A stretch of 64,000 bases of DNA from Alphaproteobacteria bacterium (GTDB lineage Bacteria; Pseudomonadota; Alphaproteobacteria; UBA828): the NCBI GenBank assembly GCA_965221125.1, contig CBDCRW010000002.1, positions 96,001 to 160,000 on the forward strand. Reading direction: 5' to 3'. Under the pieces are notes generated by a model. It made no database searches. It was not told the origin of the DNA and was given only the letters and a program-made list of their open reading frames with translations. A program made the position numbers and the translations under genes. Shown in pieces: positions 8,409-53,252 of this stretch. Each line of letters starts with the position of its first letter. The first letter of the stretch is position 1.

Positions 8409-8558
8409 CTGGAGCGCTTCCGTTTTGCTCGGAACTGCTCCAGTGATTTTTCGCTCACGGCAGCCGGTCTTCGACCGGCGCCTGCGCGGGCGCGCCGCAG
8501 GGGCGGCGGGCCGCGGTCGCGGCCTGTCGGGCGTCCGTCACAGACGGACGCCCTCTGG
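8409..8558 (+). repeat. Dispersed multi-hairpin intergenic element, copy A
   Basis: Terminal hairpins CTGGAGCGCTTCCG..CGGAACTGCTCCAG and GGGCGTCCGT..ACGGACGCCC; core TCGCTCACGGCAGC shared with copies at 11287, 25631 and 53078. Confidence 0.9.
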
Positions 8559-8660
8559 ACGTGTGGAATCGCGCGGTAGTTCTTGCATCCGGCGGGGCCT
8601 GCGGATACGTTGACGCGCCGCCGGGCCGGGTCCCGCCGGCTCACATCAGGAGAATGACCC

Positions 8661-9047
8661 ATGGCGCGCGTGACGGTCGAAGATTGCGTCGGCCTGGTGC
8701 CGAACCGATTCGAGCTCGTGCTGCTCGCGGCGCAGCGCGCCCGCGACATCCGCTCGGGCGCGGAGCTCACGGTCGAGAAGGACAACGACAAGAACGCCGT
8801 CATCGCGCTCCGCGAGATCGCCGACGAGACGATCGATCTCGAAACGCTGCGCCACGAGCTCGAGCACGGGCGGGAAGTGGACACCGAGATCGACGAGCCG
8901 GACGAAGACGCCATGGCGGTGCTGGCGGCCGAGGCCGCCTGGGCCGGCGTGACCGGCCAGACGCCCCCCGACGACGAGCCGGCGGAGGAGGAGGGCGAGG
9001 CCGAGCCGGCGGAAGCGCCGGAGAACGAGGCAGAAGCGGAGGAATAG
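8661..9047 (+). CDS. rpoZ: RNA polymerase omega subunit
   Basis: [35 protein letters not shown]. Confidence 0.97.
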
Positions 9048-9138
9048 CGCCCGCCGGCGGCGCAGCGGGCGCGGCAGGGCCGCGGCCCGTATCCCTGCGG
9101 GGAACTGACGGCGGCGCCGGCCGGGTGCGCCAGCGGTC

Positions 9139-11289
9139 GTGATCCGGCAATACGAACTCGTCGAGCGCGTCAAGAGCTACGAGCCCGCCGCGGACGAAGC
9201 TCTGCTGAACCGCGCCTACGTCTTCTCGATGAAGGCGCACGGCACGCAGACCCGCGCCAGCGGCGACCCCTATTTCGCCCATCCCATCGAGGTCGCCGGC
9301 ATCCTGACCGAGCTCAAGCTCGACAGCACGTCGATCGCGACCGCGCTGCTCCACGACACCGTGGAGGACACGGGTGCCACGGTCGAGGAAATCGGCTCGC
9401 TGTTCGGCGAGGAGACCGCGCGGCTGGTCGACGGCGTGACCAAGCTGGGCCGGCTGGAGCTTCAGTCGGACCAGGCCCATCAGGCCGAGAACCTGCGCAA
9501 GTTCCTGCTGGCCCTCTCGGAGGATATCCGCGTCCTCCTCGTCAAGCTCGCGGACCGCCTGCACAACATGCGCACCCTCCATTTCGTACCCGACGAGAAG
9601 AAGCGCCAGCGGATCGCCCGGGAAACGATGGAGATCTATGCGCCGCTGGCGGAGCGCATCGGGCTTCAGGCCTTCAAGGCGGAGCTCGAAGACCTCGCCT
9701 TCAAGGAGCTGAACCCCACCGGCTTCCAGACCATGGAAGCGCGGCTCGAGGCCCTCCGCGCCGAAGCCGGCGGCATGGTGGACCGGGTCACCGAGTCGCT
9801 GACCGAGACGCTCCGCAACCAGCGGCTGCGGGCCGGCGTCTCGGGCCGCGAGAAGCGCCCCTACTCCATCTGGGAGAAGATGCAGCGCAAGAAGCTGGCC
9901 TTCGAGCAGCTCACCGACATCGTCGGCTTTCGCGTCGTCACCGAGAGCGAGGAGGACTGCTACCGGGCGCTCGGCATCGTGCACCGCGCCTACCCGATGG
10001 TGCCCGGCCGCTTCAAGGACTACATCTCGACGCCCAAGCCCAACGGCTACCGCTCGCTCCACACCACGGTGATCGGGCCCGAGCAGCGCCGCATCGAGAT
10101 CCAGATCCGCACGCGCGACATGCACGAGGAGGCGGAGTACGGCGTCGCCGCCCACTGGGTCTTCAAGCAGGCGGGCGACGTGCACGACGACCGGCAGCAG
10201 CGCTGGCTGCGCCCGCTGCTCGAAATCCTCGACAAGGCCTCCGGGCCCGAGGAGCTGCTGGAGCACGCCAAGCTAGAGATGTTCCAGGACGAGGTGTTCT
10301 GCTTCTCGCCGCGCGGCGCGCTCATCACGCTGCCGCTGGGGGCCACGCCGGTGGATTTCGCCTATGCGGTGCACACCGACGTGGGCGATACGACCGTCGG
10401 CGCCAAGGTCAACGGGCGCATGGTGCCGCTCTGGACCCGGCTCGAGAACGGCGATCAGGTGGAGATCCTGCGCTCCCGCGTGCCCCAGCCGCAGCCGGCC
10501 TGGGAGCGCTTCGTCGTGACCGGCAAGGCGCGGACCTGCATCCGCCGCTTCACCCGGCTGAAGGAGCGCGAGCAGTTCATCGCCCTCGGCCAGGCCGTCG
10601 CCGAAAAGCTCTGCCGCGAGGCCGGCTCGGATTATTCGGAAGCGCTGCTTGAGGGCGCGCTCTCCCGCCTCAAGCAGCGCTCCGTCGGCGACCTGCTGGC
10701 CGCGCTCGGGCGCGGCGACCTCACCAGCGGCGAGGTCGCGGACGCGCTCTTCCCGGCCCGCATGATCCAGGGCATCGCGCGCCGCGCGCTCTCGGTCGCG
10801 CGCGGCCGGCGGGGCACCAAGGCCGGCGACGTCGGCATCCCCGTGCGCGGGCTGATCCCCGGCATGGCCGTCCACCTCGCCGAGTGCTGCAACCCGCTGC
10901 CGGGCGAGCGCATCGTCGGCATCGTGACTACGGGCAAGGGCGTCACCATCCACACCATCGACTGCGACACGCTGGAGAGTTTCGGCGACACGCCGGAGCG
11001 CTGGCTCGACCTCTCCTGGGAGGCGGACGCGGAGGAGAAGGGCATCCACGTCGGCCGCCTCAACCTCGTGGTCGCCAACGAGACCGGCAGCCTCAGCAAG
11101 CTCACCACGGCGATCGCCAGGAACAAGGGCAACATCAGCAACCTGAAGATCACCAAGCGCTCGCTGGATTTCTTCGAGATGCTGGTCGATGTCGAGGTCA
11201 AGGACGTGCGCCATCTCGGCAACATCGTGGCGGCCCTGCGCGCGGTGACGACGGTGAGCAGCGTCGAGCGCGAACGCGCCCGGCATTAG
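9139..11289 (+). CDS. spoT: Bifunctional (p)ppGpp synthetase/hydrolase
   Basis: HD domain (LLHDTVED), KLADRLHNMRTL, PKPNGYRSLHT, TGS and ACT domains; follows rpoZ. Confidence 0.96.
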   Translation: MIRQYELVERVKSYEPAADEALLNRAYVFSMKAHGTQTRASGDPYFAHPIEVAGILTELKLDSTSIATALLHDTVEDTGATVEEIGSLFGEETARLVDGVTKLGRLELQSDQAHQAENLRKFLLALSEDIRVLLVKLADRLHNMRTLHFVPDEKKRQRIARETMEIYAPLAERIGLQAFKAELEDLAFKELNPTGFQTMEARLEALRAEAGGMVDRVTESLTETLRNQRLRAGVSGREKRPYSIWEKMQRKKLAFEQLTDIVGFRVVTESEEDCYRALGIVHRAYPMVPGRFKDYISTPKPNGYRSLHTTVIGPEQRRIEIQIRTRDMHEEAEYGVAAHWVFKQAGDVHDDRQQRWLRPLLEILDKASGPEELLEHAKLEMFQDEVFCFSPRGALITLPLGATPVDFAYAVHTDVGDTTVGAKVNGRMVPLWTRLENGDQVEILRSRVPQPQPAWERFVVTGKARTCIRRFTRLKEREQFIALGQAVAEKLCREAGSDYSEALLEGALSRLKQRSVGDLLAALGRGDLTSGEVADALFPARMIQGIARRALSVARGRRGTKAGDVGIPVRGLIPGMAVHLAECCNPLPGERIVGIVTTGKGVTIHTIDCDTLESFGDTPERWLDLSWEADAEEKGIHVGRLNLVVANETGSLSKLTTAIARNKGNISNLKITKRSLDFFEMLVDVEVKDVRHLGNIVAALRAVTTVSSVERERARH

Positions 11290-11471
11290 GGCGCGTCCGA
11301 CTTTAACGGACGCGCCCTAGCCCTAGGCCGCGACGGCGGCCCGCCGCGTATGCGGCGCACATTGCGCGCCCCTGCGCGCGTGGCCGCACGACGCGGAGGC
11401 GCCGGCCAAGGGCCGGCTGCCGTGAGCGACAAAGAGTCAGATCGTTCCCGTGCAGAACGGATACGCTCCAG
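11287..11471 (-). repeat. Dispersed multi-hairpin intergenic element, copy B
   Basis: Perfect hairpin TAGGGCGCGTCCG-N7-CGGACGCGCCCTA beginning at the spoT stop; contains GCTGCCGTGAGCGA (reverse complement of the core). Confidence 0.9.
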
Positions 11472-11617
11472 CCATTGAACCCGGCCCGAGCGGCCGGGTT
11501 ACGAGGCTCGGCCTGCGGGCGCCGGGGTCACGCCAAATTGAGTAATTCCGGCGCCGGCCTTATATTCCACGCGCCCTGGCCGCATGGCGGCACGGGGCCA
11601 ACGAGGAGGGAGATGGG

Positions 11618-12952
11618 GTGTCTCAGCCACGCCAGACGAGTCTCGCCGGCGGCAGCGACGCGGCGCCCGGCGCCGTGCTGACCGACCGCGACAGCGGGGG
11701 TACGGTCGAGCTGCCGGTCCTCGAAGGGACGATGGGCCCTCCGGTGATCGACATTCGCGCGCTCTACGCCGGCACGGGCAAGTTCTCCTACGATCCCGGC
11801 TACACCGCCACGGGCTCCTGCAAGTCGAGGATCACCTATATCGACGGCGAAGAGGGCGTGCTGCTGCACCGCGGCTACCCCATCGAAGAGCTGGCCGGGC
11901 ACAGCGACTTTCTCGAGGTCTCCTACCTGCTGCTCCGTGGCGAGCTGCCGAACGCGGCGGAGAAGGACAAATTCGTCAGCACCATCACCAAGCACACGAT
12001 GGTGCACGAGCAGATCAACTACCTCTACCGGGGGTTCCGCCGCGATTCCCACCCGATGGCGGTGATGATCGGCGTCGTCGGCGCGCTCGCCGCCTTCTAT
12101 CACGACACCACCGATATCGACGATGCGAAGCAGCGCATGATCGCCTCGCACCGGCTGATCGCGAAGATGCCGACCTTCGCAGCGATGGCCTACAAGTACA
12201 GCATCGGCCAGCCGTTCGTGTATCCGCGCAACGACCTCACCTACGCCGAGAACTTCCTGCACATGATGTTCGCGGTGCCGTGCGAGGTCTACGAAATCAA
12301 CCCGATCCACGCGCGCGCCATGGACCGCCTCCTGATCCTCCACGCGGACCACGAGCAGAACGCGTCCACGTCCACGGTGCGCCTCGCCGGCTCTTCCGGC
12401 GCCAATCCCTATGCCTGCATCGCAGCCGGCATCGCGACGCTGTGGGGGCCGGCCCACGGCGGCGCCAACGAGGCCGTGCTGCAGATGCTGGAGGAGATCG
12501 GCACGGTCGACAACATCCCGGGCTTCATTGCGCGGGCGAAGGACAAGGACGACCCCTTCCGGCTCATGGGCTTCGGCCACCGGGTCTACAAGAACTACGA
12601 CCCGCGGGCGACGGTCATGCGCGAGACCTGCCACGAGGTGCTCGACGACCTCGGCATCAGCGACGAGCTGCTCAGGATCGCCATGGAGCTGGAGCGGATC
12701 GCGCTGGAGGACGCGTACTTCGTCGACCGCAAGCTCTACCCCAACGTCGACTTCTACTCGGGCCTGATCCTGCAGGCACTCGGCATCCCGACGCATCTCT
12801 TCACGGTGATCTTCGCGCTGGCGCGCACCGTCGGCTGGGTCGCCCAGTGGAACGAGATGATCGCGGATCCGGAGCAGAAGATCGGCCGCCCGCGCCAGCT
12901 CTACACCGGCCCGGCCCGGCGCAGCTTCGTCCCCCTGCACGAGCGGGGCTAG
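11618..12952 (+). CDS. gltA: Citrate synthase (type II)
   Basis: [49 protein letters not shown]. Confidence 0.97.
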
Positions 12953-13131
12953 CCCGTATTTCTCACCAAGGTCATGGTCTGCGCGGCGCTATCCGGCCGA
13001 CAGGCAAGGAGAGGCGCGCAGGCACCCGCCGCGACCGGGGCGATGGCGGGGCCATGCGCGACGCCCCAGCCGCAGCCTTCGTGCCAGGCGAGGGCGGCAT
13101 CCTCCACCACGGATTCGGTGATCGCGCTCAC
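12949..13131 (-). pseudogene. hsdR: Remnant of type I restriction endonuclease subunit R (first ~30 codons recognisable)
   Basis: [29 protein letters not shown] resembles HsdR N-termini; GTG start overlaps the vapC stop; sequence degenerates afterwards. Confidence 0.6.
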
Positions 13132-13547
13132 AACGGGCGCCACGGGTCGATCACGTCAAGGCCGAGACCGTCGAAGTCGCGGACGTTTCGGGTCGCGACC
13201 GACAGATCGTTCGCGCCGGCGGTTCCGGCGATGAGCGCGTCCCCCAGGTCCAGGACGCGGCCCGAGCGATGCGCCCGCGCCCTCAAGGCGGCGGCTTGGC
13301 GCGCTTCCGAACGGCCCACGGGCAGGATTCGATCCTCGTATTCCGTCACGAACGCCGACAATGCGGCGCTTATGCCGTCGCGGCGGCGTCCCGGCGGGAG
13401 GAGGCCGACGCCGAAATCCAGCTCGTGCAGGACAACGGCCGACAGCCACAGGTTGTCATGTCCGGCGAGGAAGGCGAGAACCCGCGAGTCCGGCGTCTCC
13501 CTCGTCAGCTCGGACACCACGTTCGTGTCGAGGAGCACCCCGGTCAT
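13128..13547 (-). CDS. vapC: VapC-family PIN-domain toxin
   Basis: [30 protein letters not shown]. Confidence 0.92.
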
Positions 13548-13828
13548 TCAGCCGTGCCGGCCGCGAACGGTATCTCTCTCCGGGATTTCCGATCCTTGGG
13601 GATGTCGAGGGCCGTGCCGCGGGGCATGTTGTCGACCAGCCATTGCCCCATGGGCCGACGAGGCGGCGAGTTCGCGTACCACGCACCGGCGGGCACGACC
13701 ACGAAGGACCGCCTCATGCCGATATGCTGAGGTCCCTCCTCCTCGGCCAGGCGCAGGACTTCGGACAGCCGCGCCTTGGCCTGAGCGACGGTCCATACCC
13801 GGCGAGGTTCGGGACGACGACCGGCCAT
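13544..13828 (-). CDS. Phd/YefM-family antitoxin
   Basis: WTVAQAKARLSEVLRLAEEEGPQ; RBS GGAGG; ATGA overlap with vapC. Confidence 0.85.
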   Translation of the reverse strand: MAGRRPEPRRVWTVAQAKARLSEVLRLAEEEGPQHIGMRRSFVVVPAGAWYANSPPRRPMGQWLVDNMPRGTALDIPKDRKSRREIPFAAGTAE

Positions 13829-13852
13829 GTTTCCTCCGGACGAACGAATGTA

Positions 13853-13865
13853 GTCTATCATAGAC
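13853..13865. promoter_or_regulatory. Palindrome upstream of the antitoxin, probable TA autoregulatory operator
   Basis: GTCTAT-C-ATAGAC about 25 bp upstream of the antitoxin start. Confidence 0.5.
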
Positions 13866-14043
13866 CATGTCGTAATCGGCGTCAACGATGTCGGGGCCGT
13901 GCGCGACCTTCCAGCGCGCTGACCACGAGCGCGGGCATGGCGAAATTGGGGGCAGACCCGGAACAAATTTTGTTCAACCTTTGCGAAAGGTTGGACAATC
14001 GGGGGTCATACCCCATTGAGACATAAAGGAAATAAGAAATGAA

Positions 14044-14119
14044 TGGCGTCCCCAGGGGGACTCGAACCCCCGTTTCCGGCGTGAGAGGCCGGTGTCCTAG
14101 GCCGCTAGACGATGGGGAC
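14044..14119 (-). tRNA. tRNA-Glu (CTC)
   Basis: Reverse complement GTCCCCATCGTCTAGCGGCCTAGGACA-CCGGC-CTCTCAC-GCCGG..GGTTCGAGTCC..GGGGACGCCA; encoded CCA. Confidence 0.97.
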
Positions 14120-14310
14120 GCGGCCCACGGGAGATAACCCAGAAAGGCCGCAAACTCAACCGCCGGTGGGACACCGCCGGTGGGGACGCCGGCGGGGGCG
14201 CTGGCGGGCTCGGGTCTGCGGGCGGCCCGGTCCGCATTTCCCATCGTGCGCGAGGACGTTTGGGATATCGTGTACCCGGCGGCGCTACAGCCGGGAGGAG
14301 GCGGTTCCCT

Positions 14311-15336
14311 GTGTTCGAGGAGCTGGGGTTCGAGGAGCTGACGCCGATCGGGGCGTCGGTGCTGCTGGGCCTGGTGCTGGGCTCTGCCTACGGCGCGCTG
14401 GCGCAGCGGAGCGCCTTCTGCCTGCGGCGCAGCCTGGTGGGCCAGTGGCGCGACTGCCTGCCGGCTCTGGGGACCTGGGTGATGGCGCTGGCGTGCGCGA
14501 TCGCCGGCACGCGCGTGGCGGTCGCCTTCGACCTGATCTCCTTCGACGCGCACCGCTTCCTCGCGGCCGACCTCCCGGTCGCGTCCGTGCTGCTCGGGGG
14601 CGCGCTGTTCGGCGCCGGCATGGTGCTGGCGGGCGGCTGCGTCTCGCGCCTCACGGTGCTCGTCGGCAGCGGCAATCTGCGCGCCCTGCTCGTCCTGATG
14701 GTCTTTGCCGTCACCGCCCATGCGGTGATGAAGGGGGCGCTCGCGCCGATCCGCGAGGCGCTTGGCGACGCGACCCTCCCCGGCGGCGCGGCGACGGCGC
14801 TCTCGGCCTGGCCCGGCGGCGAGGTCTGGCCGCTCGTCATCGCGGGCGGCGCGTTTCTCTTCGCGCTCTTCTCCCGCGCGCCGATCGCCCATCTGGCCAT
14901 GGCGGGCGCGATCGGGCTGCTGGTGCCGCTCGGCTGGATCGGCACGGGCTTCGTGCTGGTGGACGATTTCGACCCGATCCCCGTGCAGTCCATGGGCTTC
15001 ACGGGGCCGATGGCGGACACGCTCTTCTGGGCCGTGGCGGCGACCTCCATTCCGGCCGGCTTCGGCACCGGCCTTGCAGCGGGCGTCCTGCTCGGCAGCC
15101 TCGCCGCGGCGCTGGCGGCCGGCGAGTTCCGCTGGCAGAGCCTGGAAGGGCCGCGGCAGACCGGGCGCTACCTCGCCGGCGCCGTGATGATGGGGGTGGG
15201 CGGCGTGCTGGCCGGCGGCTGCACGGTGGGCGCCGGCCTCTCCGGCGTGTCAACGGCAAGCCTCGCAGCCCTGCTCGCGCTCGCCGCCATGGCCGTCTCG
15301 GCGCGCGCCGTCGGCGTGCTCCTCGCCGCGCGCTAG
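14311..15336 (+). CDS. YeeE/YedE (sulfur-compound transport) family membrane protein
   Basis: QRSAFCLR, GGALFGAGMVLAGGC, MGVGGVLAGGCTVGAGLSG. Confidence 0.88.
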   Translation: MFEELGFEELTPIGASVLLGLVLGSAYGALAQRSAFCLRRSLVGQWRDCLPALGTWVMALACAIAGTRVAVAFDLISFDAHRFLAADLPVASVLLGGALFGAGMVLAGGCVSRLTVLVGSGNLRALLVLMVFAVTAHAVMKGALAPIREALGDATLPGGAATALSAWPGGEVWPLVIAGGAFLFALFSRAPIAHLAMAGAIGLLVPLGWIGTGFVLVDDFDPIPVQSMGFTGPMADTLFWAVAATSIPAGFGTGLAAGVLLGSLAAALAAGEFRWQSLEGPRQTGRYLAGAVMMGVGGVLAGGCTVGAGLSGVSTASLAALLALAAMAVSARAVGVLLAAR

Positions 15337-15349
15337 AGCCGCGCTCTAG
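15333..15349. repeat. Mini palindrome CTAGAGC-CGC-GCTCTAG at the yeeE stop, possible collapsed relative of the dispersed element
   Basis: Same TAGAGC..GCTCTA termini as the solo hairpin at 60932-60964. Confidence 0.5.
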
Positions 15350-15355
15350 CCCGGC

Positions 15356-16351: not shown

Positions 16352-16434
16352 TGCTCTGTCCCACCCCGTCTCGCGTGGCCCGTCTCATATCCGGCCCGGC
16401 GGGGCGAGGCAACCGTGGCGGACGTGCGCCCTGC

Positions 16435-16462
16435 TTGACAGGCGAAGCGCCCCGGCTAGAGT
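16435..16462 (+). promoter_or_regulatory. Putative sigma70 promoter of thrS
   Basis: TTGACA-N16-TAGAGT. Confidence 0.55.
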
Positions 16463-19046: not shown

Positions 19047-19072
19047 GCGCCCGGCGGGCACGGAAGCCTGCA

Positions 19073-23832: not shown

Positions 23833-25635
23833 ATGAGCGACCTCGCGCGCATCCGCAATGTCGCGATCATCGCCCACATCGACCACGGCAAGTCCACGCT
23901 TGCTGACCGGCTGATCGAGCGCTGCGGCGGCCTGCAGAAGCGCGAGATGACCAGCCAGGTGCTCGATTCCATGGAGCTGGAGCGCGAGCGCGGCATCACG
24001 ATCAAGGCGCAGACGGTGCGCCTCGCCCATCGCGGTGCCGACGGCACGGAGCACGTGGTCAACCTGGTGGACACGCCCGGCCACGTGGATTTCTCCTACG
24101 AGGTGAGCCGCTCTCTTGCGGCATGCGAAGGCTCGCTGCTGGTGGTCGACGCCACGCAAGGCGTGGAGGCGCAGACGCTGGCCAACGCCTACCAGGCGGT
24201 GGACCACGACCACGAGATCGTCCCGGTGCTCAACAAGATGGACCTCGCCTCGGCCGAGCCGGAGCGGGTCAAGCGGCAGATCGAGGACGTGATCGGCATC
24301 GACGCGTCCGGCGCCGTCGAGGTCTCGGCCAAGACCGGGCACGGCATCGAGGCCGTGCTGGACGCGCTGATCGCCCGCCTGCCCGCGCCCGAGGGCGACG
24401 CCGACGCCCCGCTCACGGCGCTGCTGGTGGATAGCTGGTACGACCCCTATCTCGGCGTGGTGATCCTGGTGCGCGTCCTGCACGGGCGGCTTACGGCAGG
24501 CATGAAGATCCGCATGATGGCGTCAGGCGCCGAGCACGACGTCGAGCGCGTCGGCGTGTTCACGCCCAAGAAGACGCTGGTGGACAGCCTGGGCCCCGGC
24601 GAGATCGGCTTCATCACCGCCGCCATCAAGGACGTGGGCGACTGCGACGTGGGCGACACCATCACCGCGGTCCGCCGGCCTGCGGCGGCGGCGCTGCCGG
24701 GCTTTCGCCCCAGCGTGCCGGTGGTCTTCTGCGGCCTCTTCCCGGTCGATTCCAACGACTACGAGCGGCTGCGCGAAAGCCTCGCCAAGCTCCGCCTCAA
24801 CGATTCGAGCTTCCACCACGACGCGGAAAGCTCGCCCGCGCTGGGCTTCGGCTTCCGCTGCGGCTTCCTCGGCCTGCTCCACCTGGAGATCGTGCAGGAG
24901 CGGCTGGAGCGCGAGTTCGGCCTCGATCTCGTCGCGACCGCACCGAGCGTGGTCTACCGCGTGACGCTCACCGACGGCGACGAACTATCGCTCCACAATC
25001 CGGCGGACATGCCGGACCCGACGCGGATCAAGCGCATCGACGAGCCCTGGATCCACGCGACCATCCTGGTGCCGGACGAGCACCTGGGCGGCGTGCTCGC
25101 GCTCTGCGAGGAGAAGCGCGGCATCCAGCAGGACCTCACCTACGCCGGCAACCGGGCGATGGTGATCTATCGCCTGCCGCTCAACGAGGTCGTCTTCGAC
25201 TTCTACGACCGGCTGAAGTCGGTCTCGCGCGGCTACGCGAGCTTCGACTACCGGCTCGAGGACTACCTGGAGAGCGACCTGGTCAAGCTCGCCATCATGA
25301 TCAACGGCGAGCCGGTGGACGCGCTGGCGCTGATCGCCCACCGCAGCCAAGCCGAGCGGCGCGGCCGCGCGCTCTGCGTCCGCCTCAAGGAGCTGATCCC
25401 GCGCCAGCTCTTCAAGATCGCGATCCAGGCCGCGATCGGCGGCAAGGTCATCGCCCGCGAGACGGTGAGCCCGCTGCGCAAGGACGTGCTGGCGAAGTGC
25501 TACGGCGGCGACGTGACGCGCAAGCGCAAGCTTCTCGAGAAGCAGAAGAAGGGCAAGAAGCGCATGCGCCAGATCGGCAACGTCGAGATTCCGCAGGAGG
25601 CGTTTCTCGCCGCCCTCAAGATGGGGGAGCCTTAG
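23833..25635 (+). CDS. lepA: Elongation factor 4
   Basis: [48 protein letters not shown]. Confidence 0.97.
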
Positions 25636-25811
25636 ATCGCTTCCGCGTTTCGCGGAACCGATCTAAGTATTTCTCGCTCACGGCAGCTGGCCTGCGGCCA
25701 GCGCCTCCGCGTCGCGCGGTCACGCGCGCAGGGGCGCGCGATGTGCCCCGCATTCGCGGCGGGCCGCGGTTGCGGCCTGTCGCGCGTCCGTCGAGGACGA
25801 ACGCGCTCTGG
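25631..25811 (+). repeat. Dispersed multi-hairpin intergenic element, copy C
   Basis: CTTAGATCG..CGATCTAAG hairpin containing the lepA stop; core TCGCTCACGGCAGC; right hairpin GCGCGTCCGT..ACGAACGCGC. Confidence 0.9.
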
Positions 25812-39514: not shown

Positions 39515-39720
39515 GGTCGCGCCCCGCGCACGCGCTCACGCGGCGTGCGACCAAGAATCAGCCCGCACCATGGTGCGGTGCACGGGGCGGGCGGGTGGGG
39601 GCAGGCTCTGCGGATGCAGCACGCAGACCGTCGCACTTCAGGGAAAGCCGGGCCGGAGCGGCTCGGGGGAGCCGGCGCGTGGCCGGGCGCTTATACACCG
39701 GGTTCCCGCCGCCGCCGGCT

Positions 39721-39844
39721 TGTGCCGCCTTGTGCCACCTTGGGCCACTTTGTGCCACCTTGTGCCACTTTGTGCCACTTTGTGCCGCCCGATTCGTGCC
39801 ACTTTGTGCCACTTTGTGCCGGCGTATGCCGGAATGTGCCGGGT
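39721..39844. repeat. 10-bp tandem array (consensus TGTGCCACTT), 12 units
   Basis: 7 units at 39721-39790, 4-bp insert GATT, 5 units at 39795-39844. Confidence 0.92.
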
Positions 39845-39874
39845 TAAAGCCTTTCCGTGTGAAACGGGACCGCT

Positions 39875-40819
39875 CTACAGGCGGATCGCCTTCTGCGCCT
39901 CCTCGGTGAGCGCGGCTCCAGCGCCGGCCGCGGCCTCCGCCAGCACGTCGATCCACCGCTGGCCGTGGGCGGCAACCCGGTGGGTGAGGCCGATCCGCCG
40001 CGAGGGCTCGGGCGCGGCGAAACGCAGGAAGCTCAGGTCGGGCTCGGCTGCGCGCTCGGCGAGCGCGGCGGTTTCCGGGAGGAGCGTCAGCCCGGCGCCG
40101 CTCGCGACCAGCCGGGACAGCGTGGCAAGCGATTCCGCGCCGCGGCGCACCTCCCGCGTGCGCCACATCAGGGAGGCGCCGAGGACCTGGTCGGCCAGGC
40201 AATGCCCGTCGCCGAGCGTGAGCAGCGGCCCGATGTCCGCCCGCGCCAGGTCGGAGGGACGCACGTCGTCGCCGAGCGTGCGCCGGATCGAGGCCAGGCG
40301 GTCGGCCCGGCCGGCGAGCACGAAGTGATCCTCGAAGAGCTCGCGCTCGGGCAGCTCCATCAGCCCCAGCGGGAGAGAGACGATCGCCGCGTCGAGGCGC
40401 CCGGCAAGGAGGCCGGCCACGACGTCCTGCCCCGGCGCCTCCCTGATATCGAGCTCGATACGGGGCGAGGCCTCGTGCAGGCGGCTCAGGATGCCGGAAA
40501 GCAGATAGGGCGCGAGCGTGGAGACGATGCCGACGGAGACGTGGAGCGGGCCCGACTCGAACCTCTGGCCCAGGTTCTCGAGGAGCAGCGTCTCGTCCAG
40601 GATGCGAAGGGTCTGCTCATGCGCCTCGCGGCCGAGCGGCGTGAGCAGGATGCCGCGGGGCTCGCGCTCGACCAGCGGCCCGCCGAGCGAGCCCTCCAGC
40701 TCGCGAATCTGGAGCGAGAGCGCGGGCTGCGAGACGTGGACGCTCTCGGCGGCCCGGCTGAACGAGCCGTGCTCGATCAGGGCCTGGAAGTAGCGGAGCT
40801 GACGCAGGGTGACGGGCAT
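39875..40819 (-). CDS. LysR-family regulator, OxyR-like
   Basis: TLRQLRYF, VSQPALSLQI HTH; GHCLADQ motif; SLATL, GLTLLP. Confidence 0.85.
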   Translation of the reverse strand: MPVTLRQLRYFQALIEHGSFSRAAESVHVSQPALSLQIRELEGSLGGPLVEREPRGILLTPLGREAHEQTLRILDETLLLENLGQRFESGPLHVSVGIVSTLAPYLLSGILSRLHEASPRIELDIREAPGQDVVAGLLAGRLDAAIVSLPLGLMELPERELFEDHFVLAGRADRLASIRRTLGDDVRPSDLARADIGPLLTLGDGHCLADQVLGASLMWRTREVRRGAESLATLSRLVASGAGLTLLPETAALAERAAEPDLSFLRFAAPEPSRRIGLTHRVAAHGQRWIDVLAEAAAGAGAALTEEAQKAIRL

Positions 40820-45433: not shown

Positions 45434-45886
45434 GCGGCCGACCGCGCCTCGGGCGCGGAGACAACGGGTTCGACGGCATGGCCGCTGCCCGCGGCAGTCG
45501 AGCGACGGGATGGTGGAACGGGAGCGCGCCTGCGCATCAATCCGCCCCGGCCGTGGCGGCACGAGCCCCGGAGGCCAGGCAAGATGCCACGGCCGCATTG
45601 CGTCGGAGGTCGATGATCGTCGCGTGAATCATCGTTGCCACTCTTCTTGACGCGAACCGGAAACAGGGTTCTGCGCAACGGAACGCTCGCCCTCCCGGCC
45701 ATCGCCGCGGTGCCGTCGGCCGCGGCAACGAAGAATCCTATCCGATATGGACATAGGACGAAATAGAGTATCGTGCCGCACGGGTGGAACCAGTTTCTGC
45801 CGTCATTCCATGCGTCGCCGTGCCGCAGGGGGTCGGCGCGCGCGCATCGCGGCCCGCGGGAAGGACGGCAGACCGTCGGGGGAAGA

Positions 45887-46831: not shown

Positions 46832-46880
46832 CGGCCTCCGCCGCGGCGCCCCCGCATCCGCCATCCGACGCTAAGCCTGG

Positions 46881-46903
46881 GTGATGGTATAGTGTAGCCT
46901 GAC
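46881..46903. promoter_or_regulatory. Possible Zur box
   Basis: GTGATGGTATAGTGTAGCCTGAC partially matches the GAAATGTTATA-W-TATAACATTTC consensus, upstream of zur. Confidence 0.4.
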
Positions 46904-46949
46904 GCGGCGGCCGCAGGACGTCTCGCGATGCGGCCGGACCGGGGAACGA

Positions 46950-47456
46950 ATGGACGCTCCATCCGCAGACCGGCCCGCCTTCCACGACGGCGGGCACGAG
47001 CACCGGGGCTGCATCGCGGACGCGCTGGCCCGCGCCGAGGCCGTCTGCCGCGAGCGCGGCGCCCGCCTGACCCCCTTGCGGCGCAGGGTGCTGGAGCTGG
47101 TCTGGGAAAGCCATCGGGCGGTCAAGGCCTACGATCTGCTCGCCGCGCTCGGCGACGAGGGCGGCGCGGCCAAGCCGCCGACGGTCTACCGCACCCTCGA
47201 GTTCCTGATGGAGCATGGCCTGGTCCATCGCATCGACAGCCTCAACGCCTTCGTCGGGTGCCCGCAGCCGGACGAGGGCCACAGCGCCCAGTTCCTGATC
47301 TGCGGCGATTGCGGCGAGGTCTCGGAGATGAACGCGGCCAGCATCGACCGCGCGGTCGCCGCTCAGGCGGCCGGCTCGGGCTTTGCGCTCACGCGCACGA
47401 TCGTCGAGCTGCACGGCAAGTGTCCGCAGTGCGCGCCGCGCCCGCAGAGCGGCTGA
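46950..47456 (+). CDS. zur: Zinc uptake regulator (Fur family)
   Basis: RLTPLRRRVL, AYDLL, PPTVYRTLEFL, CGDC and CPQC; precedes znuCB. Confidence 0.9.
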   Translation: MDAPSADRPAFHDGGHEHRGCIADALARAEAVCRERGARLTPLRRRVLELVWESHRAVKAYDLLAALGDEGGAAKPPTVYRTLEFLMEHGLVHRIDSLNAFVGCPQPDEGHSAQFLICGDCGEVSEMNAASIDRAVAAQAAGSGFALTRTIVELHGKCPQCAPRPQSG

Positions 47457-48295
47457 GCCGGCAGCCCGCCGCGCCCGGGCCGCTGCTTGCCTCGGGCCGC
47501 GACCTGGTGGTGCGCTACGGCGGCCGCGCGGTGCTGGACCGGGTCTCGATCGAGGTCCGCCGCCAGGAGGTGGTAAGCCTGATCGGGCCGAACGGCGCGG
47601 GCAAGACCACCGCGGTGCGCGCGCTGCTCGGCCTCATCAGGCCCGATTCCGGCGCCGTCCACCACGAGCCCGGCATCGCGGTGGGCTACGTTCCCCAGCG
47701 CTTCGAGCAGCAGGAGCTTCTGCCGCTCAGCGTGCGCCGCTTCGTGGCGATGGCGAGGCGGCGCGCCAGCGGCGATGCTGCCGCTGTGCTTCAGGAGGTG
47801 GGGGCGGCGGCGGCCATCGACCGCCAGCTCAGCAGCCTCTCCGGCGGCGAGTTCAGGCGGGTGCTGCTCGCCCGCGCCCTGTTGCGCGACCCCGACCTGC
47901 TGGTGCTCGACGAGCCGATCCAGCAGGTCGACTTCGCCGGCCAGATGGCCATGCACCAGCTGATCGGCCACCTGCGGGACCGCCGCGGCTGCGGCGTGCT
48001 GGTCATCTCCCACGACCTTCACCTCGTCCTCGGCGCGACCGACCGCGTGATCTGCATCAACGGGCACGTCTGCTGCGCGGGCGAGCCGGAGGCGGTGAGC
48101 CGGCATCCCGAGTACGTCGCGCTGTTCGGCCCCCATGCGGCTGCGGCGGTGGCGGTCTACACCCACCACCACGACCACAGTCATGGCCTTCCCGTCTCCG
48201 TGGCCGCGATGGAGCCCGGCCTGCCGGACGGCGGACCACCGTCCGGCGACGGACCTGCGTCCGGTGACGGACCTGCGTCCGGCGAGGCCGGCTGA
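47429..48295 (+). CDS. znuC: Zinc ABC transporter ATPase; start uncertain (GTG 47420/47429 or CTG 47453)
   Basis: GPNGAGKT, GYVPQ, LSGGE, LDEP, SHDLH, HVCC, YTHHHDHSH. Confidence 0.9.
   Translation: MRAAPAERLSRQPAAPGPLLASGRDLVVRYGGRAVLDRVSIEVRRQEVVSLIGPNGAGKTTAVRALLGLIRPDSGAVHHEPGIAVGYVPQRFEQQELLPLSVRRFVAMARRRASGDAAAVLQEVGAAAAIDRQLSSLSGGEFRRVLLARALLRDPDLLVLDEPIQQVDFAGQMAMHQLIGHLRDRRGCGVLVISHDLHLVLGATDRVICINGHVCCAGEPEAVSRHPEYVALFGPHAAAAVAVYTHHHDHSHGLPVSVAAMEPGLPDGGPPSGDGPASGDGPASGEAG
48241..48285 (+). repeat. 18-bp in-frame tandem repeat (SGDGPA) in the znuC tail
   Basis: GTCCGGYGACGGACCTGC x2.5. Confidence 0.8.
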
Positions 48296-48302
48296 GCGCG
48301 CA

Positions 48303-49136
48303 GTGCTCGACGACTTCTTCGCGCGCGCGCTCGCCGGCGGCATCGGCGTGGCGATCGCCACCGGGCCGCTCGGCTGCTTCATGGTCTGGCGGCGCATGGC
48401 CTACTTCGGCGATTCGGTCGCCCACAGCGCGCTGCTCGGCGTCGTGCTGGGCGTCGGCCTCGGCATCGAACCCAACGCCGGCATCCTCATCATGTGCGTG
48501 GCCCTCGCCCTGCTGCTCCTGCTCCTCCAGCAGCAGCGCCGCCTCGCCACCGATACGCTGCTCGGCATCATGGCGCACGGCGCGCTCGCTCTCGGCCTCG
48601 TCGGGATCAGCTTTCTCGAGACCGTGCGGGTGGACCTGATGAGCTACCTGTTCGGCGACATCCTGGCCGTGAGCGGCCGCGACCTGCTCTGGATCTACGG
48701 CGGCGGCGGCGCGGTCCTGCTGGCGACGGCGCTGATCTGGCGGCCGCTGCTGGCCGTCACCGTGCACGAGGAGCTGGCGCGTGCCGAGGGCGTGCGCGTG
48801 CACCTCGTGCGCATCGCCTTCACCCTGCTGATCGCGCTCGCGGTCGCCATCGCCATGAAGATCATCGGGCTGATCCTGATCGTGTCGCTGCTGATCATCC
48901 CGGCGGCGACGGCGCGCCGGCTCGCACGCTCGCCCGAGCAGATGGCCCTGCTCGCGAGCGCGACCGGGGCGGTGGCCGTGGCCGGCGGGCTCCACGGCTC
49001 GCTTGCGTGGGACACGCCGTCCGGTCCCTCCATCGTGGTCGCGGCGCTCGCGCTCTTCGCGCTGGCGCACGGCGGCGCCGCGCTGGCCTCGGCCTTCGCC
49101 GGCCGGATCGTTGATTCGGCACGCGCCAACCACTAG
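48303..49136 (+). CDS. znuB: Zinc ABC transporter permease
   Basis: GPLGCFMVWRRMAYFGDSVAH, YLFGDIL, LIIPAATAR. Confidence 0.93.
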   Translation: MLDDFFARALAGGIGVAIATGPLGCFMVWRRMAYFGDSVAHSALLGVVLGVGLGIEPNAGILIMCVALALLLLLLQQQRRLATDTLLGIMAHGALALGLVGISFLETVRVDLMSYLFGDILAVSGRDLLWIYGGGGAVLLATALIWRPLLAVTVHEELARAEGVRVHLVRIAFTLLIALAVAIAMKIIGLILIVSLLIIPAATARRLARSPEQMALLASATGAVAVAGGLHGSLAWDTPSGPSIVVAALALFALAHGGAALASAFAGRIVDSARANH

Positions 49137-49165
49137 CTTCGCGCTCTCGCGCAAGGAGAACGCAG

Positions 49166-49546
49166 ATGGCTGCGAGCGGTGAGGTGGCCCGGCAGGTGAT
49201 CGAGCGGCTGCGTTTCGACGATGCCGGCCTCATCCCCGCGATCGCGCAGTCGCACGAGACCCGCGAGGTGCTGATGCTCGCGTGGATGAACGCCGACTCG
49301 GTGCGGGAGACGCTCGCCACCGGCCGGGTCTGCTACTGGTCCCGCTCGCGCCAGCGGCTATGGCGCAAGGGCGAGAGCTCGGGCCACACGCAGCGGCTGG
49401 TCGAGATGCGCTTCGACTGCGACAGCGACGCTCTGCTCCTGCTGGTCGACCAGACCGGCCCCGCCTGCCACACCAACCGCCCGGCCTGCTTCTACCACGC
49501 CGTGCAGGACGGCGAGATCCGCGTGATCGCGGAGCCGGTCAGCTAG
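49166..49546 (+). CDS. hisI: Phosphoribosyl-AMP cyclohydrolase
   Basis: YWSRSR, LWRKGESSG, DCDSD, ACHT. Confidence 0.95.
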   Translation: MAASGEVARQVIERLRFDDAGLIPAIAQSHETREVLMLAWMNADSVRETLATGRVCYWSRSRQRLWRKGESSGHTQRLVEMRFDCDSDALLLLVDQTGPACHTNRPACFYHAVQDGEIRVIAEPVS

Positions 49547-50666
49547 CTAGGAGGCGGCCGGGGCCGAGGGTCTCGGCGGCGATGCCGCGGGCGGCGGCGG
49601 CCTCGGGCACCGGATTGCCGCTGGCGAGCGCCGCCACCACAGCGCCGAGCGCGGGCGCGGTCATGATGCCGGCGCCCCCCTGCCCCGCCAGCCAAAAGAA
49701 GCCTTCGGCGGCGCGGTCGAAGCCCGCGACCGGCTGACGATCCTTCACGAAGCTCCTGAGCCCCGCCCACTTGTTGCGGATGTGGCGGATCTCCAGCCGC
49801 GTCGCCTGCATGATGCGGTCGGCGCCGATGGCGATGTCGAGCTCCTCGGGATACGCATCGCAGGGCTCGGACGGGACCTCGTCGGCGGGCGATCCCAGGA
49901 CCCGGCCGGCGTCGGGCTTGAGGTAAAAGGAATCCTCGACGTCGTGCACCATCGGCCAGCCGTCGACGCCCTCCGCCGGCCCGTCGAAGATGAACGCAGT
50001 GCGCCGCTTCGGCTCGAGACCGATGGGCGCGACGCCGGCAAGCGCGGCCACGGCGTCGCACCAGGCGCCGGCGGCGTTGACCACGACGGGCGCCGCGAAC
50101 CCGCCGGCCGGCGTCTCCGCGTGCCAGAGGCCGCCCTCGCGCCGGAGCCCCGTCACCGCCGCCTCCGTCATCAGCGTGCCGCCGCGCGCGCGGAGGCCTC
50201 GCAGGTAGCCCTGGTGCAGGGCGGCGACGTCGATCTCCTCCGCATCCGGCTCCAGCACCGCGCCGGCGACGTAGTCCTCGCGCAAGGGCACGGGCTGCGC
50301 CAGAGCTTGCTTGGCGTCGAGGCGGGCCAGGGACGGCACGCGCCGCCGGTTCTCCTCGTAGAAGCGGTCGAGCGCGGCGATCTGCTCGCTGCGGCCCACG
50401 TAGAGCACGTGGCGCGGGCTGAGCAGCGGCGCGGCCGCGAAGCCGGCGGGCGGGTCGGCGAGGAAGGCGCGGCCCGCGACGGCGAGACCCTTGGTGAGCG
50501 GCCCGCCATACGTCTCCATGTACATGGCGGCTGAGCGCCCGGTGGAGTGATAGCCGGGCGCGTCCTCCTGCTCGAGAACGACGACGCGGCCCCGCTCGGC
50601 AAGCCAGTACGCCGCCGAGGCGCCCGCCATGCCGGCGCCGACGACCAGGAAATCGCAACGCTGCAT
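49539..50666 (-). CDS. FAD-dependent oxidoreductase (DadA/D-amino-acid dehydrogenase family)
   Basis: VVGAGMAG, HSTGRSAA, VNAAGAW, WAGLRSF, GQGGAGI. Confidence 0.88.
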   Translation of the reverse strand: MQRCDFLVVGAGMAGASAAYWLAERGRVVVLEQEDAPGYHSTGRSAAMYMETYGGPLTKGLAVAGRAFLADPPAGFAAAPLLSPRHVLYVGRSEQIAALDRFYEENRRRVPSLARLDAKQALAQPVPLREDYVAGAVLEPDAEEIDVAALHQGYLRGLRARGGTLMTEAAVTGLRREGGLWHAETPAGGFAAPVVVNAAGAWCDAVAALAGVAPIGLEPKRRTAFIFDGPAEGVDGWPMVHDVEDSFYLKPDAGRVLGSPADEVPSEPCDAYPEELDIAIGADRIMQATRLEIRHIRNKWAGLRSFVKDRQPVAGFDRAAEGFFWLAGQGGAGIMTAPALGAVVAALASGNPVPEAAAARGIAAETLGPGRLLAS

Positions 50667-50799
50667 GGCGCGCATTCTATGCGGCGCACCCGGCAGCCGA
50701 AATGGCGGGACTCGGCGTTCGGGGATACGGAACTGCCGCTCTCGGCAAGGCGGGCGCGGCCCGCTACTCTTGCGCCCTCTTCAAGAGCGGGAGCGGACG

Positions 50800-51615
50800 A
50801 TGGAAATTTCGTGTGAGGGCCGGCGCGCGGTGGTGACCGCAGGCGGGTCGGGGATCGGGCGGGTCATCGCGGAGACGCTGGCGGCCAACGGCGCCGCCGT
50901 CTTCACCTGCGACGTCCAGCCCGGACTGGTCGAGGACGTGCGGAGCAGGAGGATCGGCGCGATCGAGGCCGACGTCGCCGATCCGGCCCAGGTGGACCGG
51001 CTGTTCGAGGTCGCGGCGGAGGCCATGGGCGGCGTCGACATCCTCGTCAACAACGCCGGGATCGCCGGCCCCACCGCCCACGTCGAAGCCATCGAGCCCG
51101 CCGACTGGGACCGCACGATCGCGGTCAACATCTCCGGCCAGTTCTATTGCGCGCGCCGCGCGGTGCCGCTCATGCGCGCGGCCGGACAGGGCGCCATCGT
51201 CAACATCTCGTCCACCGCAGGGCGCATGGGCTTCCCGCTCCGGCTCCCCTATGCGACATCGAAGTTCGCCATCACCGGGCTTACCAAGACGCTCGCCATC
51301 GAGCTGGGCCCGGCCAACATCAGCGTCAACGCGATCCTGCCGGGCTACATCCTGAACGAGCGGGGCAGACGCGTGGTCCGCGCCAAGGCCGAGGCCGCCG
51401 GGCGCACGGTGGAAGAGATGCAGGCGACCATCCTGCGCAACATCGCCATGCGGACGGGCATCACGGAGCAGGAGATCGCCGACCTCGCGCTCTACCTCTG
51501 CTCCGACTCCGGCCGCCACATCTCGGGCCAGCTCCTCGGCGTCGACGGCATGTTCGACACCTACATGGGCATGGACAACCTCGACGACCCGCCGTCCGGC
51601 GCGGCCGGCGCGTGA
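50800..51615 (+). CDS. Short-chain dehydrogenase/reductase
   Basis: TAGGSGIG, NNAGIAGP, YATSK. Confidence 0.92.
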   Translation: MEISCEGRRAVVTAGGSGIGRVIAETLAANGAAVFTCDVQPGLVEDVRSRRIGAIEADVADPAQVDRLFEVAAEAMGGVDILVNNAGIAGPTAHVEAIEPADWDRTIAVNISGQFYCARRAVPLMRAAGQGAIVNISSTAGRMGFPLRLPYATSKFAITGLTKTLAIELGPANISVNAILPGYILNERGRRVVRAKAEAAGRTVEEMQATILRNIAMRTGITEQEIADLALYLCSDSGRHISGQLLGVDGMFDTYMGMDNLDDPPSGAAGA

Positions 51616-52352
51616 TCGTCCTCTTCACGGATTTCGGGCCGGGCGGGCCGTACACGGGCCAGATGAAGGCCGTGCTCGCGCGCGAGGCGCCGGGCGTCCC
51701 CGTGGTCGACCTCGCGGACGACCTGCCCGCCTGCGATCCCGAGCCCGCCGCCTATCTGCTCGCGGCCTTCGCGCCGGCCTTCCCGCCGGGCGCGGTCTTC
51801 GTCTGCGTGGTCGACCCCGGCGTGGGCAGCGCGCGGGCGCCGGTGGCGGTGAGCGCCGGCGGTCGCTGGTACGTCGGCCCCGACAACGGCCTCCTCGCCA
51901 TCGTCGCCCGGCGGGCGGACGACGCGCGCTGGTTCGCCATCGACTGGCGGCCACCCACCCTCTCCGCCTCCTTCCACGGCCGCGATCTCTTCGCGCCGGT
52001 GGCGGCGCAATTGGCGCGCGGGGACGCGCTGCCGGGCACGCCGCTGGACGGCGCCCCGGCCGGCGCCGACTGGCCGGACGACCGGGCCGCGATCGTCTAC
52101 ATCGACCCCTACGGCAACGCGATGACCGGAATCCGCGCGGCCCGGCTGGCGGAGGACGCGGTCGTCGTCGCAGGCGGCCGGCGGCTCCAGAAGCTGCGCA
52201 CGTTCTCCGACGCCGCAAGGGGCGCGGCCTTCTGGTACGAGAACGCGAACGGGCTCGCCGAGGTCGCGGTCAACCGGGGCCGCGCGGACCGGGTTCTGGG
52301 TCTCGGCGTGGGAACGCCGGTCCGCATCGAGACGGCGGGCGGCGCGGGATGA
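51612..52352 (+). CDS. SAM hydroxide adenosyltransferase (DUF62; chlorinase/fluorinase superfamily)
   Basis: LFTDFG, VVDPGVG, GPDNG, SFHGRDLFAP, IDPYGN, EVAVN; GTGA overlap with SDR. Confidence 0.88.
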   Translation: MIVLFTDFGPGGPYTGQMKAVLAREAPGVPVVDLADDLPACDPEPAAYLLAAFAPAFPPGAVFVCVVDPGVGSARAPVAVSAGGRWYVGPDNGLLAIVARRADDARWFAIDWRPPTLSASFHGRDLFAPVAAQLARGDALPGTPLDGAPAGADWPDDRAAIVYIDPYGNAMTGIRAARLAEDAVVVAGGRRLQKLRTFSDAARGAAFWYENANGLAEVAVNRGRADRVLGLGVGTPVRIETAGGAG

Positions 52353-53080
52353 CGGGCTGGCGGCCGAACGGAGACCAGATTCGCGCGGGCGCGCTCGCCG
52401 GCGCCGACCTCTCGGGCTTCGACCTGCAGGGCTTCCACTTCCGCCAGGCCGACCTGCGCGGTGCCAGCTTCGCCGGCAGCATCCTGCGCGAGGTCGACCT
52501 CTGGGCCGCCGATCTCACCGGCGTCGACCTCACCGGCGCGAACCTGCGGCTTGCCACCTTCAAGGGTGCAAAGCTGCAGGGCGCGCGGCTCGCCGGCGCG
52601 GACCTCTGGAGCGCCGATCTCAAGGTCGCCGACCTGGACGGCGCCGTTCTCTCGGAGTGCAATCTCGCCCAGGCCGAGCTTGCCGGTGCGAAGTGCCGGG
52701 GCGCGGACTTCAGCGGCGCCGAGCTCTACTGCGCCGACCTGCGCCTCGCCGACCTGGAGAACGCCAACCTCGGCCGCGCCGACGGGCGCCTCGCCAAGCT
52801 GGAGGAGGCGGTGCTGATCGGCGCCAACCTGCGCGAAGCGAATTTCTCGGGCGCGAGCTTCAAGCGCGCGCGCCTCGCCACTGCCGACTTCGCCGGCGCC
52901 TACCTGCGCGAGGCGAACTTCCGCGAGGCCGATCTCATCCGCGCCGACTTTCGCGGGGCCGAGGTGGCGGACGCCTTCTTCGGCCAGGCCAACCTCGACG
53001 GCACGGTGATGCCCGACGGCACCATCGAGTCCGCGGCGCTGCGCCACTGGTCCCCGCCGCCGGAGCCGGACGAGGATTGA
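52349..53080 (+). CDS. Pentapeptide repeat protein
   Basis: Continuous A(D/N)(L/F)xx repeats ending in MPDG. Confidence 0.92.
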   Translation: MTGWRPNGDQIRAGALAGADLSGFDLQGFHFRQADLRGASFAGSILREVDLWAADLTGVDLTGANLRLATFKGAKLQGARLAGADLWSADLKVADLDGAVLSECNLAQAELAGAKCRGADFSGAELYCADLRLADLENANLGRADGRLAKLEEAVLIGANLREANFSGASFKRARLATADFAGAYLREANFREADLIRADFRGAEVADAFFGQANLDGTVMPDGTIESAALRHWSPPPEPDED

Positions 53081-53252
53081 AGCGCGTCCGTCATGCACGG
53101 ACGCGCTTCAGGCCGCGACCGCGGCCCGCCGCGAATGCGGCGCGCCCGCATCGTGCGCTCCGCGCGCGTTCCGCGCGACGGCGCCGGTCGAAGACCGGCT
53201 GCCGTGAGCGATAAAGGCATAGAGCGTTTCCGTGCAATACGGATACGCCCTA
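53078..53252 (-). repeat. Dispersed multi-hairpin intergenic element, copy D
   Basis: TGAAGCGCGTCCGT..ACGGACGCGCTTCA and TAGAGCGTTTCCG..CGGATACGCCCTA hairpins; both ends are stop codons of convergent genes. Confidence 0.9.

What the first reader, a model, noticed from the sequence alone, without database searches (positions are those of the whole stretch)
8409..53252. Family of four structured 150-185 bp elements with covarying hairpins
Seen: copies at 8409-8558(+), 11287-11471(-), 25631-25811(+) and 53078-53252(-) share one architecture: left hairpin, A/T-rich linker, invariant TCGCTCACGGCAGC, small hairpin, variable middle, GGCCGC-N4-GCGGCC, right hairpin with GCGTCCG..CG(G/A)ACGC. Stems change compensatorily: GCCGGTC-TTC-GACCGGC / GCCGGCC-CTT-GGCCGGC / GCTGGCC-TGC-GGCCAGC; left stems CTGGAGC..GCTCCAG vs TTAGATCG..CGATCTAA; loops vary freely. 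Known: the TAGAGCG..CGCTCTA-type terminal palindromes recall alphaproteobacterial Bru-RS/RIME/CIR repeats. Inference: a lineage-specific non-autonomous mobile element or structured RNA under selection for folding, about one per 16 kb here, with no cognate transposase in the window.
Basis: partly seen in the sequence, partly recalled or inferred. Interest (0 to 1): 0.75.

Follow-up and report, generated by a model that had tools for sequence, protein, structure and literature searches.

The report
Stop-codon-landing mini-transposon with conserved core
The four repeats are copies of a small non-coding jumping element, about a hundred per genome, that lands on the TA of gene stop codons and probably borrows the enzyme of an IS630-type insertion sequence; its folded middle part is unexpectedly shared with many distant relatives.

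Summary
The four copies belong to a family with 115 hits (75 full length) in this genome and matches in 19 of 20 congeners. Empty orthologous sites show insertion with a 2-bp duplication at a YTAR target; 43 of 69 copies complete a gene's stop codon, and the lepA and spoT stops were hit independently, in both orientations, in different species. The element's left end matches the right end of a recently active IS630-family element of a congener (21 of 26 bases; same YTAR target, 12 of 12 copies). No such transposase is in this assembly. So it is most likely an IS630-mobilised MITE of the CIR/RIME/Bru-RS type, not an HUH or IS110 partner and not a stand-alone RNA gene. Stem covariation is real, but part of it bears marks of arm-to-arm copying in DNA (two-base conversions both ways, a loop inversion, matching of host flank). 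The unusual part is the 80-base core: it covaries across families, has no Rfam match, and occurs without the transposon ends in 40 of 101 genomes of another order, after stop codons, tRNAs and 23S rRNA. Mobilisation and core function are inferred, not shown.

The parts
8412..8555 (+). Copy 1, short form (144 bp): left hairpin 8412-8440, T-rich linker, core 8445-8526, right hairpin; 4 bases after the TGA of the ATP12 gene, upstream of rpoZ
   Evidence: absent from 10 of 10 relatives aligned and from a contig of run X13
8410..8411 (+). Left copy of the 2-bp target duplication of copy 1 (TG; right copy TG at 8556-8557)
   Evidence: filled versus empty sites
11289..11468 (-). Copy 2 (180 bp, with a 30-bp internal module and a GANTC site at 11434-11438); its right-end base completes the TAG of relA/spoT (11287-11289); flanks TA 11287-11288 and CA 11469-11470
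   Evidence: empty in 7 of 8 relatives, an independent opposite-orientation copy in G008
25635..25808 (+). Copy 3 (174 bp, same internal module as copy 2); its first G completes the TAG of lepA (25633-25635); right flank TG 25809-25810
   Evidence: empty in 12 of 14 relatives aligned, independent copies in G019 (same orientation) and G014 (opposite)
53080..53250 (-). Copy 4 (171 bp, different internal module); completes both the TAG of a TPP-enzyme gene (53250-53252, minus) and the TGA of a pentapeptide-repeat gene (53078-53080, plus)
   Evidence: the TPP-gene stop is element-free in G007
60932..60964 (.). Solo right-type hairpin (remnant) whose two ends are the TAG stops of convergent ComEC-like and lexA genes
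39845..39877 (-). Degenerate solo left-type hairpin starting at the TAG of ORF 39875-40819; belongs to a related remnant class followed by 10-bp tandem repeats

Best explanation
A non-autonomous miniature transposon (MITE) of the alphaproteobacterial two-arm (CIR/RIME/Bru-RS) type. Its ends, GAGCG-N2-TCCG read inward, derive from the end of an IS630-family insertion sequence of the ISRel6-related group. The transposase, supplied in trans, cuts it out and inserts it at the TA of YTAR, duplicating TA. Because the element starts with G at both ends, insertion into a TAG stop rebuilds the stop in either orientation, so copies survive at gene 3' ends. After insertion the unneeded TA decays and the arms of each hairpin are homogenised, partly by template switching. 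Shown: mobility by filled/empty sites, 2-bp duplication, YTAR and stop-codon bias, end likeness to IS630. Inferred: that this transposase moves it, the template-switch mechanism, and why stops are favoured.
For: Empty sites with a net 2-bp duplication: C5:451290 in 5 of 5 relatives, C5:431125 in 3 of 5, copies 1 and 2. Independent hits at the lepA and spoT stops in both orientations. End dinucleotides TA in 39 of 69 left and 32 of 69 right ends, most others TG or CA; pyrimidine before the stop in 34 of 45 versus 495 of 1288 TAG stops; 43 of 69 copies complete a stop versus 868 of 10450 non-coding TAGs (crude gene caller). IS630 element of G009: NCBIfam NF033545, 22 full copies at 97-100%, YTAR flanks in 12 of 12 copies seen; its right end matches the MITE left-end consensus at 21 of 26 bases and scores 34.9 bits on a matrix of MITE ends, which 8 of 107167 other TA-led 26-mers of the genome reach at 20 bits, the best of them element remnants; six IS5-type elements score -22 to -63. 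IS630 elements insert into and duplicate TA (PMC2170065, passages).
Against: No IS630 transposase in this assembly (92% complete) nor in four distant genomes that carry the element, so co-variation of IS ends with MITE ends could not be tested. Only the left end matches strongly; on the right-end matrix the best IS ends score 9-10 bits. Three GAGC-ended IS630 elements (G001, G006, G007) score -26 to +2 on the left-end matrix. No near-identical copies: nearest-neighbour identity at most 91% among 44 short copies, so no recent burst here. The distal TA is intact in only 9 of 41 informative copies, faster decay than the rest; CTAG is depleted genome-wide (0.25 of expectation) but the cause was not tested. 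Three of five further sites examined could not be resolved.
Confidence: 0.75

Rival explanations
1. The core is a functional structured RNA element (processing or stability signal at transcript 3' ends) kept by host-level selection; the transposon ends only deliver it.
For: Core covaries across families: 21 of 24 pairs, 0 of 500 shuffles, including the helix that closes an asymmetric internal loop. It occurs without the hairpin ends after asd (1-4 tandem copies, 4 of 4 genomes of one genus), after tRNAs and in 23S-5S spacers, mostly in sense orientation among the loci viewed. A gene reads into the element within 80 bases in 58 of 67 copies; a perfect right hairpin goes with a stop at that end (11 of 24 versus 5 of 43, p=0.003, one of 8 tests).
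Against: In this genome the element faces both ways to the upstream gene (21 left, 27 right stop overlaps of 75); sites are empty in most relatives; G-T and A-C mispairs are equal in the left stem (16 versus 18); left-hairpin perfection is unrelated to stop overlap (p=0.44). No expression data: only contigs were available.
Confidence: 0.2
2. A REP/REPIN-like single-stranded DNA element moved by an HUH (RAYT, IS200/IS605), IS110 or small GIY-YIG enzyme that recognises the hairpins.
For: Hairpins at both ends; inner arm of the left hairpin matches the outer flank up to two bases beyond the TA, as a pairing-guided target choice might give.
Against: A 2-bp duplication is not expected for IS200/IS605-type insertion (established knowledge). 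No Y1 transposase in the genome; IS110 ends unlike the element; 9 ORFs between close element pairs are metabolic or transport genes; no core next to 8 non-UvrC GIY-YIG loci, nearest about 700 bases away.
Confidence: 0.07
3. The covariation is wholly a mutational by-product of template switching between palindrome arms; nothing selects the fold.
For: Two-base conversions of the right stem in both directions (7 outer-to-inner, 2 inner-to-outer, 7 other among 16 perfect stems of 67); an exact inversion of the commonest left loop at C5:676897; arms match host flank (26 and 27 of 40 versus 12.4 and 16.0 expected). Template switching is reported to perfect inverted repeats in proteobacteria (PMC5941160, abstract) and to make compensatory changes in RNA stems (10.1101/2021.04.15.439925, abstract).
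Against: The bulges, the asymmetric internal loop and unpaired TCAC of the core persist across families, which arm copying would erase. Compatible with the best explanation for the terminal stems.
Confidence: 0.25

Closest known systems
CIR1-CIR4, Caulobacter CcrM-associated intergenic repeats (Chen and Shapiro 2003, seen only as summarised in PMC2229807), with Bru-RS1/2 and RIMEs as kin
   Same: Intergenic; two independently folding arms joined by a linker; TA at the termini; GANTC in 27 of 67 copies. A Sinorhizobium record holds TAGAGC...GCTCTA hairpin repeats of like design, two with GANTC in the linker.
   Different: 144-205 bp rather than about 110, through a multi-hairpin core; GANTC lies in the linker and is absent from 40 of 67; the review lists the duplication as '?' and the mobility as unknown, both addressed here. 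No direct sequence comparison with CIR, Bru-RS or RIME was possible.
RUP of Streptococcus pneumoniae and other TA-flanked MITEs (ERIC, Correia) (PMC2229807, passages)
   Same: Non-coding, TA target duplication, ends like an IS630-family element, about 100 copies.
   Different: Those fold end-to-end; here each end is its own hairpin, with a modular covarying core and a strong overlap with stop codons.
IS630-family elements related to ISRel6 of Rhizobium etli (RefSeq annotation)
   Same: TA-flanked ends starting GAGC; right end 19-21 of 26 bases like the MITE's left end in seven elements; YTAR target.
   Different: They carry the two-part transposase gene and lack the completed hairpins and the core.
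GTAG- and CGTC-tagged REPs (PMC3733652, passages)
   Same: Palindromic, extragenic, abundant in alphaproteobacteria.
   Different: No such tag; longer; 2-bp duplication; no RAYT in the genome.

Membership tests
IS630-related MITE | Short, non-coding, multi-copy, with empty orthologous sites | tested here: met
IS630-related MITE | TA target duplicated on insertion | tested here: met
   net 2 bp at four sites; one TA copy is usually decayed
IS630-related MITE | Terminal inverted repeats like those of an IS630 element | tested here: met
   left end 21 of 26, 34.9 bits; right end weaker, 9-10 bits
IS630-related MITE | Cognate transposase in the same genome | tested here: not met
   IS630 present in 14 of 17 congeners
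IS630-related MITE | Mobilisation in trans by that transposase | not testable with these tools
   needs a transposition assay
CIR/RIME/Bru-RS repeats | Two arms folding separately, joined by a linker, TA termini, intergenic | tested here: met
   definition from PMC2229807
CIR/RIME/Bru-RS repeats | Conserved GANTC site | tested here: inconclusive
   27 of 67 copies
CIR/RIME/Bru-RS repeats | About 100-116 bp | tested here: not met
   mostly 147-151 and 174-180 bp; three shorter derivatives of about 100-115 bp exist
CIR/RIME/Bru-RS repeats | Sequence homology to the published consensus | not testable with these tools
   original paper not held; no whole-element hit in plasmid records
REP/REPIN (RAYT) or IS200/IS605 derivative | Y1 transposase in the genome and no target duplication | tested here: not met
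Known Rfam RNA family | Match at gathering score | tested here: not met
   window, 5 loci at E up to 10, 20 core loci

The most novel reading that the evidence does not exclude
The 80-base core is an undescribed, class-wide structured nucleic-acid module of Alphaproteobacteria with a job of its own (an RNA processing or stability signal, or a protein-binding fold) that has been picked up repeatedly by unrelated carriers: IS630-type MITEs with different ends, tRNA-end elements and tandem arrays. The IS630 link would also give the CIR/RIME/Bru-RS class its long-missing mobilising enzyme.
Probability: 0.3. Interest if true: 0.7.

Novelty: new variant of a known kind. Interest (0 to 1): 0.42.

Why it matters
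A review lists the CIR-type repeats with unknown target duplication and unknown mobility; this family supplies a duplication, a target and a candidate active transposase, so the question can be tested. It shows how a selfish element can rebuild stop codons of core genes (lepA, spoT) again and again. It is also a caution for RNA-motif mining: strong covariation in repeat hairpins can come from DNA arm copying. If the core has its own function, a widespread structured element is missing from Rfam.

Tried and rejected
Rfam: no family. Viral contigs: 0 matches to the core pattern. Plasmids, whole element: only chance hits, E 5; one followed was coding sequence. Y1 and IS630 transposases not found in own genome; ends of five IS families of the genome unlike the element, one merely inserted at an element's TTAG end. 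IS5-type elements of the family: ends do not match. Enzyme between element pairs: none among 9 ORFs. IS630 in four distant carriers and one Sinorhizobium record: none found, test impossible. A recalled likeness of the core to a ColE1 single-strand initiation region: no model hit at E up to 1 (one 8-mer match at chance level). GIY-YIG neighbour: not supported. Terminator scan over 8300-11700 flagged no element hairpin. The right-stem table had a strand error and was redone.

Full report
Observation. The four copies are present as described and fold far better than shuffles (copy 3: z -5.8 RNA, -5.3 DNA). A profile from the four finds 118 hits in the genome; after one round, 115 hits, 76 spanning both ends, of which 75 above 50 bits were analysed. 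The window has no Rfam match but two tRNAs. The host is an uncultured alphaproteobacterium: an exact pattern hits 19 places, all in MAGs titled Alphaproteobacteria or Rhodospirillales bacterium, and near-identical DNA lies in runs labelled sponge metagenome. Copy 1 matches 19 of 20 congeners and 5 of 5 genomes of a sister family.

Anatomy. Left hairpin (11-bp arms GAGCGTTTCCG / CGGAAACGCTC, 7-base loop), T-rich linker, TCGCTCAC, a bulged hairpin, a mini-hairpin, two 6-bp hairpins and a right hairpin of the same design as the left. Modules of about 30 bp are inserted at two fixed internal points, giving 147-151, 174-180 and about 205-bp forms; deletion derivatives lack one hairpin or the middle. 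Two solo hairpins lie in the window, one serving as the stop of both a ComEC-like gene and lexA.

Mobility and target. Orthologous sites are mostly empty: lepA 12 of 14 relatives aligned (17 fetched), ATP12 10 of 10, spoT 7 of 8. The exceptions are independent insertions at the same stop codon, two of them reversed. Of five more sites compared in five relatives, one gave a net 2-bp duplication in 5 of 5, one in 3 of 5, and three were unresolved. After dropping 6 mis-anchored copies, 43 of 69 have a terminal base that is the third base of a called stop, against 8% of non-coding TAGs; the caller is crude (3570 stops) and the background is probably understated. The base before the stop is a pyrimidine in 34 of 45. 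The TA copy that is not a stop is intact in only 9 of 41, most often TG or CA; this is unexplained beyond a genome-wide CTAG deficit. Whether stops are targeted or merely tolerated is not settled.

The enzyme. The genome has no Y1 or IS630 transposase, and its IS4/5-type and IS110 ends differ from the element. IS630 occurs in 20 of 41 genomes of the family. Among 30 IS630 loci, several have TA-flanked ends beginning GAGC. That of G009 is 1052 bp with its TAs, has two overlapping frames matching NF033545, 22 full copies at 97-100% and YTAR flanks in 12 of 12 copies seen. Its right end matches the MITE's left end at 21 of 26 bases, loop included; related elements of G012, G236 and four rhizobial plasmids, one annotated ISRel6, match at 19-20. 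On a matrix of MITE left ends these three score 23-35 bits; six IS5-type and two other IS630 elements score -22 or less; three GAGC-ended IS630 elements score -26 to +2. The MITE right end is matched only weakly. No copy pair in this genome exceeds 91% identity, which fits loss of the transposase some time ago.

Covariation. On 43 copies from several genomes, 26 of 52 named pairs change on both sides (128 cells against 37 in shuffles, 0 of 500; slid controls far lower; the tool warns that relatedness inflates this). In 67 own copies the left stem has 17 compensated double changes against 4 uncompensated, but G-T and A-C mispairs are equal and the plus strand does not fold better (28 of 75 as RNA). 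The inner arm matches the outer sequence two bases beyond the TA: 38 and 37 of 75 against 23 and 25 expected; in the 40 copies without GANTC, a split chosen after seeing the data, 26 and 27 of 40 against 12 and 16. At copy 1 the matched base is the A of the host stop. The right stem is perfected by two-base changes in both directions, and one left loop is the exact reverse complement of the commonest loop. These are the marks of template switching (PMC5941160 and 10.1101/2021.04.15.439925, abstracts). Selection is not excluded: perfect right stems go with stop overlap at that end (p=0.003, one of 8 tests).

The core. A whole-element model hits 13 of 151 genomes across the class, this one included. 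In them the core is kept while the terminal hairpins differ or are missing. An alignment of 26 cores has 21 of 24 pairs with double changes, including 4 cells in the helix that closes the internal loop. A core model hits 9 of 151 genomes of the phylum, all of this class, and 40 of 101 genomes of another alphaproteobacterial order, up to 41 of 45 scored places (E-values rough, no shuffled control; the 28 loci viewed keep the motif). Contexts: tandem copies after asd, directly after tRNA ends in four genomes, rRNA spacers, after stop codons, and inside other hairpin-ended repeats. Partial matches lie on Mesorhizobium, Phyllobacterium, Neorhizobium, Rhizobium, Agrobacterium and Azospirillum replicons (10 records, one a Streptomyces). 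No Rfam family, ColE1 region or adjacent GIY-YIG gene explains it.

Comparison with what is known. It works like an IS630-related MITE and is built like the CIR/RIME/Bru-RS repeats; strict membership in those could not be tested, because the original paper is not held and ISfinder is not available. I read passages of PMC2229807, PMC3184786, PMC3733652, PMC2573895, PMC10800456, PMC11578231, PMC2170065 and 10.64898/2026.09.22.753630. Nine full-text searches showed no description of this family, of the core, or of an IS630 link for CIR-type repeats; the library lacks most subscription papers and supplements were not read, so this is weak evidence of novelty. CcrM as reader of GANTC comes from PMC2229807. 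Earlier notes of this scan reach the same IS630 reading; I saw them, and they are not independent support.

Verdict. Real, and in kind known: a stop-codon-landing IS630-type MITE (confidence 0.75). New variant through its modular, class-wide core. Interest 0.42; 0.7 if the core proves to be a functional module (probability 0.3).

Noticed in passing
window 39720-39830: Array of degenerate 10-bp tandem repeats (GGCACAAAGT type) behind the degenerate solo hairpin; the same hairpin-plus-array arrangement occurs at G000 C5:418052 and C5:669322.
   Followed up: no
G000 C5:442075-442373 (L127:17075-17373) and C5:431990-432134: A second repeat family of about 300 bp with TA-flanked terminal inverted repeats, many copies in congeners; it carries the same internal module as copy 4, so modules move between families.
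   Followed up: partly
L202:1250-1401: An IS630 element of G006 sits in the terminal TA of a MITE copy; another IS family sits in the TTAG end of the copy at G000 C7:652382.
   Followed up: no
L274, L264, L356: Where the core follows a tRNA, a decayed copy of the tRNA 3' tail is seen by eye about 35-40 bases after it, as if carried by a tRNA-end element.
   Followed up: partly
G000, whole genome: TAG makes up 1288 of 3570 called stops (36%), high for a 69% G+C genome by my recollection; crude caller.
   Followed up: no
L036 and G000 C7 near 652280: A further palindromic repeat beginning CCCCACCTCACCCC lies in spacers of this genus.
   Followed up: no
window 52349-53080, 53250-55376, 54950-57532: Pentapeptide-repeat gene convergent with a TPP-enzyme gene and an AtzD/TrzD-type ring-opening amidohydrolase; the TPP gene has other neighbours or is not found in most congeners.
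   Followed up: no
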